Below are positions 1,851-2,678 of a DNA stretch of 64,000 nt, in pieces. A program made the translations under genes and the position numbers. The notes beneath the pieces were generated by a model. That model was not told the origin of the DNA. It saw only the letters and a program-made list of their open reading frames with translations, and did no database searches. This stretch comes from Escherichia phage vB_EcoM_Shinka, in sequence record MZ502379.1, one strand, 5' to 3'. Positions within the stretch are counted from its first letter, which is position 1. Every line of letters begins with the position of its first letter.

Positions 1851-1926
1851 TGGTCGAGGCAGTAGGGATCGAACCTACGACCCAGGACTTAGAAGGTCCT
1901 TGCTCTTCCTTCTGAGCTATGCCTCG
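1851..1926 (-). tRNA. tRNA-Arg (anticodon TCT)
   Basis: 76 nt cloverleaf built by hand: 7-bp acceptor, anticodon loop CTTCTAA, T-loop TTCGATC, CCA encoded. Confidence 0.8.
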
Positions 1927-1930
1927 TATT

Positions 1931-2005
1931 TGGCGGACGTGATAGGATTCGAACCTATAACCAATCGCTTAACAGGCGATCGCTCTGCCATTGAGCTACA
2001 CATCC
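1931..2005 (-). tRNA. tRNA-Asn (anticodon GTT)
   Basis: 75 nt; acceptor with one G-U, anticodon stem ATCGC/GCGAT, loop CTGTTAA, T-loop TTCGAAT, CCA encoded. Confidence 0.7.
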
Positions 2006-2009
2006 AAAT

Positions 2010-2096
2010 TGGTGGGGAGTGATGGAGTCGAACCACCCGAGTCGCAATGACAATGGATTTACAGTCCACACCGCTACCTCTACGGGATAACTCCCC
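2010..2096 (-). tRNA. tRNA-Tyr (anticodon GTA), type II
   Basis: 87 nt; perfect 7-bp acceptor GGGGAGT/ACTCCCC, anticodon loop CTGTAAA, long variable arm, T-loop TTCGACT, CCA encoded. Confidence 0.7.
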
Positions 2097-2105
2097 AAAT
2101 TAATT

Positions 2106-2180
2106 TGGTGGCCCTGGGTAGAATTGAACCACCATCTGGCGATTATGAGTCGCTTGCTTGAACCTTCCAGCTACAGGGCC
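2106..2180 (-). tRNA. tRNA-Ile/Met (anticodon CAT)
   Basis: 75 nt; acceptor GGCCCTG/CAGGGCC, anticodon loop CTCATAA, T-loop TTCAATT, CCA encoded; T4 tRNA-Ile uses CAU. Confidence 0.75.
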
Positions 2181-2181
2181 T

Positions 2182-2257
2182 TGGTGCTGATTGACGGAAT
2201 CGAACCGCCGACGTCCTCATTACAAGTGAGGTGCTCTACCTACTGAGCTAAATCAGC
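2182..2257 (-). tRNA. tRNA-Thr (anticodon TGT)
   Basis: 76 nt; acceptor GCTGATT/AATCAGC, anticodon loop CTTGTAA, T-loop TTCGATT, CCA encoded. Confidence 0.8.
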
Positions 2258-2262
2258 AAAAC

Positions 2263-2352
2263 TGGCGGAGGCGATAGGATTTGAACCTATGAGTCGCCGG
2301 AGCGACTGCCGGTTTTCAAGACCGGTGCATTAAACCACTCTGCCACGCCTCC
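2263..2352 (-). tRNA. tRNA-Ser (anticodon TGA), type II
   Basis: 90 nt; acceptor GGAGGCG/CGCCTCC, anticodon loop CTTGAAA, long variable hairpin AGTCGC/GCGACT, T-loop TTCAAAT, CCA encoded. Confidence 0.8.
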
Positions 2353-2354
2353 AG

Positions 2355-2428
2355 TCTCCATACAAGGATTTGAACCTTGGACCTCCTGATCCCAAATCAG
2401 GCGCTCTACCAAACTGAGCTACACGGAG
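2355..2428 (-). tRNA. tRNA-Pro (anticodon TGG)
   Basis: 74 nt; anticodon stem CCTGA/TCAGG, loop TTTGGGA, T-loop TTCAAAT; no encoded CCA; 2 nt from tRNA-Ser. Confidence 0.8.
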
Positions 2429-2438
2429 TAAATTAAAT

Positions 2439-2512
2439 TGGAGCGGATAATGAGAATCGAACTCACATCATCAGATTGGAAGTCTGAGGTAATACCATTA
2501 TACGATATCCGC
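2439..2512 (-). tRNA. tRNA-Gly (anticodon TCC)
   Basis: 74 nt; acceptor GCGGATA/TATCCGC, anticodon stem TCAGA/TCTGA, loop CTTCCAA, T-loop TTCGATT, CCA encoded. Confidence 0.8.
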
Positions 2513-2517
2513 AAATT

Positions 2518-2604
2518 TGGTGCGAGAAGTGGGACTCGAACCCACAAGGAAATCATTCCGCAGCATTTTAAGTGCTGTGCCTTTACCAATTTGACCATTC
2601 TCGC
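2518..2604 (-). tRNA. tRNA-Leu (anticodon TAA), type II
   Basis: 87 nt; acceptor GCGAGAA/TTCTCGC, anticodon stem CAGCA/TGCTG, loop CTTAAAA, long variable arm, T-loop TTCGAGT, CCA encoded. Confidence 0.8.
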
Positions 2605-2605
2605 G

Positions 2606-2678
2606 CTGGGAATAAAGGACTCGAACCTTTGCATCCTGGAATCAAAATCCAGTGCCTTACCAACTTGGCTAATTCCCA
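2606..2678 (-). tRNA. tRNA-Gln (anticodon TTG)
   Basis: 73 nt; acceptor TGGGAAT/ATTCCCA, anticodon stem CTGGA/TCCAG, loop TTTTGAT, T-loop TTCGAGT; 1 nt from tRNA-Leu (dimeric-precursor arrangement). Confidence 0.8.

What the first reader, a model, noticed from the sequence alone, without database searches (positions are those of the whole stretch)
1851..2678. Compact 10-tRNA array including Tyr(GTA) and Asn(GTT) beyond the classical T4 set
Hand-folded cloverleaves give, in transcription order on the minus strand, Gln-Leu-Gly-Pro-Ser-Thr-Ile(CAT)-Tyr-Asn-Arg, with spacers of 1-10 nt. Gln/Leu and Pro/Ser are 1-2 nt apart, the dimeric-precursor arrangement; Pro and Gln lack an encoded CCA. As I recall, T4 has eight tRNAs with Arg in a separate subcluster; here Tyr and Asn fill the gap before Arg.
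Basis: partly seen in the sequence, partly recalled or inferred. Interest (0 to 1): 0.45.

Follow-up and report, generated by a model that had tools for sequence, protein, structure and literature searches.

The report
Known ten-tRNA cluster of T4-like phage
The ten transfer-RNA genes are real and correctly read, but they are the ordinary, already published and annotated tRNA cluster of RB3/T2-type relatives of phage T4, in which T4 itself carries a selfish endonuclease gene (segB) where Tyr and Asn sit here.

Summary
Confirmed and already known. The 1.6 kb around them is 97.5-98.7% identical to many Tequatrovirus genomes (RB3, RB14, NBG2). RB3 and NBG2 carry the same ten tRNAs, and RB3 also annotates the stable RNAs rnaD and rnaC. 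Tyr plus Asn occurs in 446 phage records; T4's segB occurs in 126. T4 has tRNA-Ile, segB and tRNA-Arg where the window has CAT-tRNA, Tyr, Asn and Arg. T6 has Tyr, segB, Arg.

The window's tRNA-Asn contains the 27-bp preferred SegB homing site published in 2008, so this is the segB-free recipient allele.

Refinements:
- The CAT tRNA and the Arg tRNA are not T4's sequences.
- The CAT tRNA looks like tRNA-Ile2 (ileX-type), not Met as databases label it.
- Ser encodes CCA here but not in T4.
- Only Gln and Pro lack an encoded CCA.

Function: eight tRNAs read A-ending codons that are 2-14 times commoner in the phage than in E. coli. The T6 Tyr orthologue (97.7% identical) has been shown to counter Septu, which cleaves tRNA-Tyr. 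Interest is low.

The parts
2748..2772 (-). Candidate MotA-dependent middle promoter: MotA box TGCTTTA, 12-nt spacer, -10 TATTAT. It lies about 70 nt upstream of tRNA-Gln.
   Evidence: Pattern match: 11 matches in the window against 2.2 expected, and none of 100 shuffles reached 11. The stretch is invariant in window, RB3, T4 and T6. The same 44-bp cassette recurs upstream of the gene 31 homologue at 61476-61519. Promoter activity is inferred, not shown. The generic sigma-70 scan was at background.
2605..2678 (-). tRNA-Gln (UUG). No encoded CCA; one nucleotide separates its discriminator from tRNA-Leu.
   Evidence: (67.4 bits). The anticodon arm differs from T4/T6 at 8 positions (three compensatory pairs plus positions 32 and 38), and the rest is identical.
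2518..2604 (-). tRNA-Leu (UAA), CCA encoded
   Evidence: (59.3 bits). 100% identical to T4.
2439..2512 (-). tRNA-Gly (UCC), CCA encoded
   Evidence: (65.8 bits). 100% identical to T4.
2354..2428 (-). tRNA-Pro (UGG). No encoded CCA; two nucleotides separate its discriminator from tRNA-Ser.
   Evidence: (66.8 bits). 100% identical to T4.
2263..2352 (-). tRNA-Ser (UGA). CCA is encoded here; T4 has GTAA at this point.
   Evidence: (62.6 bits); alignment columns 536-540.
2182..2257 (-). tRNA-Thr (UGU), CCA encoded; one nucleotide before the next tRNA
   Evidence: (73.5 bits).
2106..2180 (-). tRNA with anticodon CAT, most likely tRNA-Ile2 (lysidine-modified, reads AUA). ARAGORN and GenBank label it Met. 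It is not the same sequence as T4 tRNA-Ile.
   Evidence: 55.1 bits. 75% identical to E. coli ileX, 80% to a prophage tRNA-Ile, 57% to metT/metU and 62% to T4 Ile. It shares C4:G69, C5:G68 and the 15-nt anticodon arm GCGACTCATAATCGC with ileX. The eight best E. coli hits listed are annotated tRNA-Ile. ATA codons are 4.8 times the host frequency and ATG 0.9 times.
2010..2096 (-). tRNA-Tyr (GUA), class II with long variable arm, CCA encoded. Absent from T4, present in T6.
   Evidence: (30.2 bits, borderline); covariation; 85/87 identical to T6 tRNA-Tyr with an identical variable arm.
1931..2005 (-). tRNA-Asn (GUU), CCA encoded. Absent from T4 and T6.
   Evidence: (74.1 bits, the best of the ten). 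Discriminator G73 as in E. coli asnT.
1929..1955 (-). Preferred SegB homing-endonuclease recognition site (27 bp, GGTTCGAATCCTATCACGTCCGCCAAA) in the T-arm and 3' end of tRNA-Asn
   Evidence: It matches the published consensus GGTTCRANTCC...CCAR. It differs from the Ser site (2287-2261) at exactly G6, A16, G18, A26 and A27, as the 2008 paper states for T2L.
1851..1926 (-). tRNA-Arg (UCU), CCA encoded. Same anticodon as T4 tRNA-Arg but a different sequence.
   Evidence: 65.8 bits. 100% identical to RB3; only 48% in the best local alignment to T4/T6.
1728..1849 (-). rnaD (species 2 stable RNA), starting right after the Arg CCA
   Evidence: Coordinates transferred from the RB3 and T4 annotations through alignment A1. 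98% identical to RB3 and 84% to T4. No Rfam family matched.
1584..1722 (-). rnaC (species 1 stable RNA) with a tRNA-like T-arm near its 3' end
   Evidence: 99% identical to RB3, T4 and T6. GGTTCGAATCC motif at 1606-1596.
1501..1536 (-). Intrinsic terminator closing the tRNA/stable-RNA transcription unit
   Evidence: 10-pair stem with 7 G-C pairs, a 4-nt loop and a T-run (stem at 1533-1510). NBG2 annotates a terminator at the equivalent position. A second copy at 946-981 is given.

Best explanation
This is the tRNA gene cluster of a T4-like phage (genus Tequatrovirus), in the segB-free form found in RB3, RB14, NBG2 and T2L.

It is one compact unit of about 1.25 kb on the minus strand. It runs from a MotA-type middle promoter just upstream of tRNA-Gln (probably with read-through from promoters further upstream) to a strong intrinsic terminator. 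It encodes ten tRNAs followed by the stable RNAs rnaD and rnaC.

The long transcript is cut into mature tRNAs by host enzymes: RNase P at the 5' ends and 3' trimming nucleases. Host CCA-adding enzyme completes Gln and Pro, the only two without an encoded CCA. Gln-Leu, Pro-Ser and Thr-CAT, which nearly abut, pass through dimeric intermediates as in T4.

The tRNAs top up the host pool for an AT-rich genome. Eight of them (Gln, Leu, Gly, Pro, Ser, Thr, Ile2, Arg) read A-ending codons that E. coli uses rarely. Tyr and Asn serve two amino acids the phage uses more heavily. They also duplicate host tRNAs that antiphage nucleases cut: Septu and retron-Eco7 PtuAB cut tRNA-Tyr, and PARIS AriB cuts tRNA-Asn.

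T4's classical eight-tRNA layout is a different allele of this locus. There the homing endonuclease SegB, whose preferred cut site lies inside tRNA-Asn, arrived with its own flanking Ile and Arg genes and displaced the block CAT-tRNA, Tyr, Asn, Arg.

Shown here: gene content, identity to known phages, the SegB site and the codon statistics. Taken from papers: SegB homing and the Septu/tRNA-Tyr effect in T6. Inferred: promoter use, the processing steps, and any anti-defence benefit in this particular phage.
For: - Ten tRNAs are found by two methods.
- The region is 97.5-98.7% identical over 1.6 kb to many Tequatrovirus genomes, and 489 records cover at least 80% of it.
- RB3 and NBG2 annotate the same ten tRNAs in the same order; RB3 adds rnaD and rnaC.
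- Flanking genes (trna.2/3/4, ipI, 57B, 57A) are syntenic with T4.
- T4 has Ile-segB-Arg and T6 has Tyr-segB-Arg at the same place.
- The window has no SegB homologue.
- The exact 27-bp SegB site with its five diagnostic bases is in tRNA-Asn.
- In T4 x T2L co-infection, SegB homing excludes the T2L block Met(CAT), Tyr, Asn, Arg (PMC2330249).
- Codon use in 56 window ORFs against 31 E. coli K-12 genes: AGA 14.3x, ACA 5.6x, ATA 4.8x, TCA 4.8x, GGA 3.0x, TTA 2.6x, CCA 2.1x, CAA 1.9x. Tyr codons total 42.0 against 30.3 per 1000, and Asn codons 58.8 against 36.6.
- Septu cleaves tRNA-Tyr, extra T6 tRNA-Tyr rescues the phage, and T4, which lacks a tRNA-Tyr gene, cannot escape (PMC13096335). The window's Tyr is 85/87 identical to T6's.
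- The promoter cassette and terminator are supported.
- T4 tRNAs are expressed from early in infection and rise continuously (PMC9697503).
Against: - No expression or processing data exist for this phage.
- The generic sigma-70 scan is at background (8 found, 8.3 expected), so the promoter call rests on the MotA-box pattern and its conservation.
- The processing pathway (RNase P, dimeric precursors, CCA addition) comes from my knowledge of the classical T4 work by the McClain and Abelson laboratories, not from a tool or a paper read here.
- Tyr(GUA) and Asn(GUU) carry the same anticodons as multi-copy host genes, so the codon-compensation argument is weaker for them (1.4-1.6x) than for the other eight.
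- T6 tRNA-Tyr is itself cleaved by Septu, and a single copy gives only intermediate resistance.
- The direction of the allele replacement in evolution is inferred from the homing experiment.
Confidence: 0.9

Rival explanations
1. Tyr and Asn are there purely for codon or amino-acid supply, like the other eight. The AT-rich phage uses many more TAT and AAT codons than the host, host tRNAs decay during infection, and extra copies speed late-protein synthesis. No defence role is involved.
For: TAT is 2.2x and AAT 2.8x the E. coli frequency. Total Tyr is 1.39x and total Asn 1.61x. Host tRNAs decline during T4 infection while phage tRNAs rise (PMC9697503). The anticodon loops of the phage Tyr and Asn are identical to the host's, so decoding is the same.
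Against: The enrichment is much smaller than for the A-ending codons served by the other eight tRNAs (2-14x). T4 and T6 do without Asn, and T4 without Tyr. Phage tRNA-Tyr dosage decides the outcome for T6 under Septu. Lys (AAA, 57 per 1000) and Asp are used even more heavily, yet no such tRNA is encoded.
Confidence: 0.35
2. Tyr and Asn, with Thr, act mainly as anti-defence cargo. They replace or decoy host tRNAs cut by tRNA-targeting immune nucleases: PtuAB of Septu and retron-Eco7 for Tyr, and AriB of PARIS for Asn and Thr.
For: T6 tRNA-Tyr overexpression rescues T6 from Septu, deleting the tRNA region sensitises T6, and T4 without tRNA-Tyr cannot escape (PMC13096335). The window's Tyr is 97.7% identical to T6's, with an identical variable arm. 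AriB cuts host tRNA-Asn at U36-A-A-U-C|C41, and U39A abolishes cleavage in tRNA-Lys (PMC12409363). The window's Asn reads U-A-A-G-C-G, with G39 as in the T5 tRNA-Asn that helps against PARIS. The window's Thr has G40 at the cut site.
Against: T6 tRNA-Tyr is also cleaved by Septu, and one copy gives only partial protection. The array has no tRNA-Lys, the main PARIS target, so PARIS would not be neutralised. T4, which has Thr, still needs T5 tRNA-Lys. Nothing was tested for this phage. Asn is only a secondary AriB target.
Confidence: 0.4
3. The CAT-anticodon gene is an elongator tRNA-Met, as ARAGORN, GenBank records and the 2008 paper label it, not tRNA-Ile2.
For: ARAGORN calls it Met. RB3, NBG2 and T6 records say tRNA-Met. 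PMC2330249 lists a T2L tRNA-Met at this position. An unmodified CAU anticodon reads AUG.
Against: It is 75-80% identical to E. coli tRNA-Ile(CAU) genes and 57% to metT/metU. It has C4:G69 and C5:G68, plus the whole ileX anticodon arm, where metT has T4:A69 and A5:T68. From memory of the TilS literature, those two pairs are the lysidine-synthetase determinants. RefSeq annotates the eight best E. coli matches listed as tRNA-Ile. It occupies the slot of T4's experimentally known tRNA-Ile. ATA codons are 4.8x the host's and ATG codons are not enriched. One record already hedges with 'tRNA-Xle'.
Confidence: 0.15
4. The Tyr candidate is a decayed or false tRNA, since it barely passes Rfam.
For: 30.2 bits against a gathering score of 29, E = 0.028. 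One record labels the orthologue 'tRNA-OTHER'.
Against: ARAGORN accepts it. It forms a full cloverleaf with a long variable arm, an A73 discriminator and an encoded CCA. Eight of its 25 pairs are kept through double changes relative to E. coli tyrU. It is at least 95% conserved in several hundred phages. The T6 orthologue is detected on northern blots and is functional.
Confidence: 0.03

Closest known systems
tRNA gene region of phages RB3, RB1 and T2L (EMBL AJ884578, AJ884577, AJ880101; Brok-Volchanskaya et al. 2008, PMC2330249), and the same region in the RB3 (KM606994), RB14 and vB_EcoM_NBG2 genomes
   Same: Same ten tRNAs in the same order with the same anticodons. Same rnaD and rnaC downstream in RB3. 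Same flanking genes. 98.4-98.7% nucleotide identity. No segB. The same preferred SegB site in tRNA-Asn.
   Different: A few point differences, for example one base each in Gly and the CAT tRNA and two in Thr against RB3. Like NBG2 and unlike RB3, the window has a 555-bp cassette with a 157-aa ORF after the terminator. According to the paper, T2L has two extra ORFs in its region.
Classical phage T4 tRNA cluster (eight tRNAs, segB, rnaD, rnaC; NC_000866)
   Same: Same position, strand and flanking genes. Leu, Gly, Pro and the Ser body are identical, and Thr is 99% identical. rnaC is 99% identical. The upstream promoter region is the same, as is the near-abutting Gln-Leu and Pro-Ser layout.
   Different: T4 has segB instead of Tyr and Asn. 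Its Ile(CAT) and Arg(UCU) are different sequences (62% identity for CAT/Ile in alignment A2; 48% for Arg in the best local alignment). Its Gln anticodon arm differs at 8 positions. Its Ser and Ile lack an encoded CCA.
Phage T6 tRNA-rich region (AP018814), used in the Septu/SegB study (PMC13096335)
   Same: T6 has the same tRNA-Tyr (85/87) in the same position after a CAT tRNA. Gln, Leu, Gly and Thr lie upstream, and rnaD and rnaC downstream.
   Different: In T6, segB replaces Asn. Pro and Ser are deleted. Its CAT tRNA, Arg and Gln arm are the T4 types.
Phage T5 tRNA-rich region (anti-defence tRNA-Tyr, tRNA-Lys, tRNA-Thr, tRNA-Asn)
   Same: Phage-borne copies of tRNAs that host immune nucleases target. 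The Asn has G39 in place of the host U39, as here. Homing endonuclease genes are interspersed among the tRNAs.
   Different: A different phage family (Demerecviridae). It has 24 annotated tRNAs spread over about 10 kb with their own strong promoters, and it includes tRNA-Lys. Sequence identity to the window's Tyr is only about 85%.

Membership tests
Tequatrovirus tRNA cluster, segB-free RB3/T2L-type allele | High nucleotide identity and synteny with the RB3/NBG2 tRNA region (trna.2 upstream; rnaD, rnaC and terminator downstream) | tested here: met
   98.4-98.7% over 1601 bases, 100% coverage. Feature-by-feature correspondence.
Tequatrovirus tRNA cluster, segB-free RB3/T2L-type allele | Ten tRNAs in the order Gln-Leu-Gly-Pro-Ser-Thr-CAT-Tyr-Asn-Arg | tested here: met
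   ARAGORN on the window against the RB3 and NBG2 annotations.
Tequatrovirus tRNA cluster, segB-free RB3/T2L-type allele | No segB gene, and an intact preferred SegB recognition site in tRNA-Asn | tested here: met
   tblastn with T4 SegB finds nothing in 64 kb. The 27-bp site at 1955-1929 has the consensus and all five diagnostic bases. Cleavage itself was not testable.
Classical T4 eight-tRNA arrangement | [quoted passage not shown] | tested here: not met
   The window has Tyr and Asn there, and different CAT and Arg sequences.
Canonical tRNA (Rfam RF00005) | Score at or above the gathering threshold, with a cloverleaf accepted by a second program | tested here: met
   All ten pass and all ten are called by ARAGORN. 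Tyr is marginal at 30.2 bits but is supported by covariation.
tRNA-Ile2 (CAU anticodon modified to lysidine, ileX type) | Acceptor-stem pairs C4:G69 and C5:G68, and an ileX-like anticodon arm rather than a metT-like one | tested here: met
   Alignment A2 and the identities. That these pairs are the TilS determinants is from my memory of the literature, not checked here.
tRNA-Ile2 (CAU anticodon modified to lysidine, ileX type) | Not an initiator: position 1 pairs with position 72 | tested here: met
   G1 pairs with C72 in GGCCCTG...CAGGGCC.
tRNA-Ile2 (CAU anticodon modified to lysidine, ileX type) | Lysidine at position 34 and charging by IleRS | not testable with these tools
   This needs mass spectrometry or aminoacylation assays.
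Anti-defence phage tRNA (T6/T5 tRNA-Tyr against Septu and retron-Eco7) | Orthology to a tRNA shown experimentally to counter the defence | tested here: met
   85/87 identity to T6 tRNA-Tyr, with an identical variable arm. The T6 experiments are in PMC13096335.
Anti-defence phage tRNA (T6/T5 tRNA-Tyr against Septu and retron-Eco7) | Rescue of this phage from the defence system | not testable with these tools
   This needs plating assays on Septu or retron-Eco7 hosts with a Tyr deletion.
Nuclease-resistant phage tRNA variant (T5 tRNA-Lys type against PARIS AriB) | A substitution in the U36-A-A-U39 motif or at the 40|41 cut site, relative to the host target | tested here: inconclusive
   Asn has G39 and G41 where the host has U39 and C41, as does T5 Asn at position 39. 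Thr has G40. Resistance to cleavage is untested. The paper shows that the motif alone is not sufficient for recognition.

The most novel reading that the evidence does not exclude
The Tyr-Asn pair, with Thr, could be an anti-defence module rather than codon support. Tyr would act as a dosage buffer against PtuAB-type nucleases. Asn would be an AriB-resistant variant (G39). SegB homing into tRNA-Asn would then erase that cargo, so the common Tyr-Asn / Tyr-segB / segB polymorphism among T-even phages would record a three-way conflict between host tRNA nucleases, phage tRNAs and a selfish endonuclease. The patchwise replacement of the Gln anticodon arm would be part of the same arms race.
Probability: 0.15. 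Interest if true: 0.4.

Novelty: already known. Interest (0 to 1): 0.1.

Why it matters
As a discovery it matters little. The array has been published since 2008, is annotated in RB3 and NBG2 and listed under the matches in most of the other top records, and is the majority arrangement among sequenced T4-like coliphages. T4 is the unusual one.

Its value is as context. The locus is a textbook example of a homing endonuclease overwriting neighbouring genes. Since 2024-2026 it has also been a model for phage tRNAs as countermeasures to tRNA-cleaving immune systems. A phage with this allele is predicted to be a recipient for SegB homing when co-infecting with T4 or T6. It carries the tRNA-Tyr whose dosage decides the outcome against Septu in T6.

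A small practical point is that the CAT tRNA, labelled Met in the RB3, NBG2 and T6 records read here, is probably tRNA-Ile2.

Tried and rejected
- Rfam at gathering thresholds gave no family for rnaC or rnaD. They were placed by transferring the RB3 and T4 annotations through an alignment.
- The generic sigma-70 promoter scan was uninformative (8 hits, 8.3 expected). I used the T4 middle-promoter pattern instead.
- tblastn with SegB found no copy elsewhere in the window.
- A literature search for descriptions of Tyr and Asn tRNAs in T4-like genomes returned mostly mitochondrial papers.
- The T4 post-transcriptional review PMC3014915 contained none of the tRNA-processing terms I searched for. 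The processing pathway is therefore stated from memory and marked as such.
- The T4 locus L002 was not readable from the Python sandbox. I worked through the alignment tool instead.
- The local-alignment percentages for genes that are absent from T4 or T6 (Tyr and Asn in T4; Asn, Pro and Ser in T6) are matches to other tRNAs and should not be read as orthology.
- I considered the idea that Tyr is a false positive, and the idea that the CAT tRNA is an initiator. I rejected both (see rival explanations and membership tests).
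Full report
**1. The observation**

ARAGORN finds ten tRNA genes in the whole 64-kb window. All lie on the minus strand between 1851 and 2678, exactly the interval given. In transcription order they are Gln(ttg), Leu(taa), Gly(tcc), Pro(tgg), Ser(tga), Thr(tgt), a CAT-anticodon tRNA, Tyr(gta), Asn(gtt) and Arg(tct).

Rfam's tRNA covariance model independently reports the same ten, all above its gathering score. Nine score 55-74 bits. Tyr is marginal at 30.2 bits against a threshold of 29.

Reading the 3' ends directly gives these results:
- Leu, Gly, Ser, Thr, CAT, Tyr, Asn and Arg encode CCA after the discriminator.
- Gln is followed by CGC and Pro by CTG, so these two lack an encoded CCA.
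- One nucleotide separates the Gln discriminator from Leu, and two separate Pro from Ser.
- Thr-CCA is one nucleotide from the CAT tRNA.
- The other spacers are 4-10 nt.

The weak Rfam score for Tyr is not a concern. An RNAalifold consensus with T6 tRNA-Tyr and E. coli tyrU gives a cloverleaf with a long variable arm. Eight of its 25 pairs are kept through changes on both sides. The gene is 85/87 identical to the T6 gene.

**2. What the window is**

The 1.6 kb around the array is 97.5-98.7% identical to many Tequatrovirus genomes, and 489 records cover at least 80% of it. The best matches are vB_EcoM_NBG2, RB3, RB5-RB10 and RB14.

RB3's annotation lists the same ten tRNAs in the same order. 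They are followed by the stable RNAs rnaD and rnaC and preceded by trna.2, trna.3, trna.4 and ipI. NBG2 is the same. The window's ORFs upstream match this order.

Transferring the RB3 and T4 annotations through an alignment puts rnaD at 1849-1728 and rnaC at 1722-1584. A strong intrinsic terminator follows, with its stem at 1533-1510.

**3. Comparison with T4 and T6**

T4 has eight tRNAs. Gln, Leu, Gly, Pro, Ser, Thr and Ile form one group. The 666-bp GIY-YIG homing-endonuclease gene segB comes next, and then Arg, rnaD and rnaC. T6 has Gln, Leu, Gly, Thr, a CAT tRNA, Tyr, segB and Arg.

A four-way alignment with per-gene identities shows a mosaic:
- Leu, Gly, Pro, the Ser body, Thr and rnaC are 99-100% identical between the window and T4.
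- From 12 nt into the CAT tRNA to the start of rnaD, the window and T4 are not homologous.
- The window's CAT tRNA is 62% identical to T4 tRNA-Ile. Its Arg reaches only 48% in the best local alignment to T4's Arg, although the anticodon is the same.
- The Gln genes are identical except for eight differences confined to the anticodon arm. Three base pairs are swapped on both sides, and loop positions 32 and 38 differ.
- Ser encodes CCA in the window but reads GTAA in T4.

So Tyr and Asn do not simply fill a gap. The block CAT-Tyr-Asn-Arg is an alternative allele to Ile-segB-Arg.

**4. This is published**

Brok-Volchanskaya et al. 2008 (PMC2330249) sequenced the tRNA regions of T2L, RB1 and RB3. 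They found the regions homologous to T4's but lacking segB. They mapped the preferred SegB cleavage site inside the tRNA-Asn gene. They also showed that in T4 x T2L co-infection segB is inherited at nearly 100%, with exclusion of about 1250 bp of T2L DNA encoding tRNA-Met(CAT), Tyr, Asn and Arg.

The paper describes the site in three ways:
- It is 27 bp long.
- It starts with GGTTCRANTCC and often ends in CCAR.
- It differs from the weaker Ser site at G6, A16, G18, A26 and A27.

The window's Asn contains GGTTCGAATCCTATCACGTCCGCCAAA at 1955-1929. Its Ser contains GGTTCAAATCCTATCGCCTCCGCCAGT at 2287-2261. The two differ at exactly those five positions.

The window is therefore a segB-free recipient allele with an intact homing site. 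No SegB homologue exists anywhere in the window.

In the phage collection, Tyr plus Asn covers at least 80% of the query in 446 records. T4 segB does so in 126. The ten-tRNA form is the common one.

**5. The CAT tRNA**

ARAGORN and the GenBank records call it Met. The evidence favours Ile2:
- It is 75% identical to E. coli ileX, 80% to a tRNA-Ile next to a prophage antiterminator Q gene, and 57% to metT/metU.
- It shares the acceptor pairs C4:G69 and C5:G68 with ileX, where metT has T:A and A:T. It also shares the whole 15-nt anticodon arm GCGACTCATAATCGC.
- G1 pairs with C72, so it is not an initiator.
- The eight best-scoring E. coli matches listed are annotated tRNA-Ile in RefSeq.
- ATA codons are 4.8 times as frequent in the window's ORFs as in an E. 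coli sample, whereas ATG is 0.9 times.
- That C4:G69 and C5:G68 are the lysidine-synthetase determinants is from my memory of the literature.

I put Ile2 at about 0.85. The modification itself cannot be tested here.

**6. How it most likely works**

*Transcription.* A T4 middle-promoter pattern lies at 2772-2748: a MotA box TGCTTTA, 12 nt, then TATTAT. This is about 70 nt upstream of Gln, in a stretch invariant among the window, RB3, T4 and T6. The pattern occurs 11 times in the window against 2.2 expected, and none of 100 shuffles reached 11. A 44-bp copy of the same cassette lies upstream of the gene 31 homologue. T4's tRNAs are reported to be expressed from early times and to rise throughout infection (PMC9697503). 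Promoter use here is inferred.

*Processing.* Cutting by host RNase P and 3' nucleases, dimeric Gln-Leu and Pro-Ser intermediates, and CCA addition to Gln and Pro follow from the classical T4 work. I cite that from memory.

*Function.* In 56 ORFs (18,073 codons) compared with 31 E. coli K-12 genes, the A-ending codons read by eight of the tRNAs are enriched as follows:

| Codon | Enrichment over host |
|---|---|
| AGA | 14.3x |
| ACA | 5.6x |
| ATA | 4.8x |
| TCA | 4.8x |
| GGA | 3.0x |
| TTA | 2.6x |
| CCA | 2.1x |
| CAA | 1.9x |

Tyr and Asn codons are enriched only 1.4-fold and 1.6-fold in total. These tRNAs duplicate abundant host species, so supply alone is a weaker rationale for them.

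Recent work gives a second rationale:
- Septu and retron-Eco7 (PtuAB) cleave tRNA-Tyr in the variable arm.
- T6 tRNA-Tyr overexpression rescues T6, and deleting the tRNA region sensitises it.
- T4, which has no tRNA-Tyr, cannot escape.
- T6 tRNA-Tyr is itself cleaved, so it acts by dosage (PMC13096335; PMC11555353).
- The window's Tyr has the same variable arm as T6's.

For Asn, PARIS AriB cuts host tRNA-Asn(GUU) as a secondary target at U36-A-A-U-C|C41. U39A abolishes cleavage in tRNA-Lys (PMC12409363). The window's Asn reads U-A-A-G-C-G, with G39 as in T5's tRNA-Asn. The window's Thr has G40 at the cut position. This is suggestive only. The array has no tRNA-Lys, the main PARIS target, and the paper shows that the motif alone does not determine recognition.

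**7. Verdict**

It is the majority allele among T4-like coliphages, and T4 is the exception because of segB.

Nothing here would surprise a phage specialist. The only small additions are the likely Met-to-Ile2 relabelling, the G39 in Asn and the patchwise Gln-arm difference. Interest is 0.1 and the novelty rating is 'already known'.

Noticed in passing
window 2740-2781 and 61476-61519 (minus strand): There is a 44-bp repeat (93% identical) made of a stop codon, a MotA box TGCTTTA, a 12-nt spacer and TATTAT. One copy precedes tRNA-Gln. The other precedes the gene 31 (co-chaperonin) homologue at 61453-61118. It looks like a shared middle-promoter cassette, and it explains the 'second place' that every related phage record showed.
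   Followed up: partly
window 2636-2652 (tRNA-Gln anticodon arm), alignment A1 columns 150-166: The window and RB3 read CTGGA-TTTTGAT-TCCAG where T4 and T6 read TAGCA-CTTTGAC-TGCTA. That is three base pairs swapped on both sides plus loop positions 32 and 38, while the other 56 nt of the tRNA are identical. A patch like this suggests gene conversion or selection on the anticodon arm, not gradual drift. From memory, the window's loop matches the E. coli tRNA-Gln(UUG) loop, but I did not read the host gene here.
   Followed up: partly
window 946-1536: A 555-bp cassette holds a 157-aa ORF (986-1459, PHROG 2280, unknown function). It is bounded by two copies of the 36-nt terminator hairpin (946-981 and 1501-1536, 94% identical). 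It is present in NBG2 and absent from RB3 and T4. It looks like a small module inserted by recombination at a terminator.
   Followed up: partly
L010 (Escherichia phage vB_EcoM_11B_SA_NWU) 1297-2312: This phage has yet another allele of the locus. A tRNA-His and a 206-aa 'endonuclease' gene sit between Asn and Arg, giving eleven tRNAs. The interval before Arg is evidently a hotspot for endonuclease insertion.
   Followed up: no
L003 (T6), alignment A1 columns 381-551: T6 lacks Pro and Ser through a clean deletion. It joins the first 7 nt of Pro to the D-arm of Thr, where both genes read GTAGCTCAGT. This fits recombination between similar tRNA segments.
   Followed up: no
window 1580-1606 (3' part of rnaC): rnaC carries a tRNA-like T-arm (CCGGGTTCGAATCCCGG) that also matches the SegB core motif GGTTCRANTCC. 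The stable RNA therefore ends in a tRNA-like element and is a potential weak SegB site.
   Followed up: no
window 2263-2265 against T4 (L002 about 3619): tRNA-Ser encodes its CCA in this phage, whereas T4 reads GTAA there. The Pro-Ser precursor would then need CCA addition only on Pro, not on both as I recall for T4.
   Followed up: partly
window 3662-3690 and 4028-4056 (minus strand): Two identical-looking sigma-70-type sites (TTTACA, 17 nt, TACTAT, each with an upstream TG) lie upstream of the trna.4 and ipI homologues. They are candidate early promoters that could read through into the tRNA cluster. The scan overall was at background frequency.
   Followed up: no
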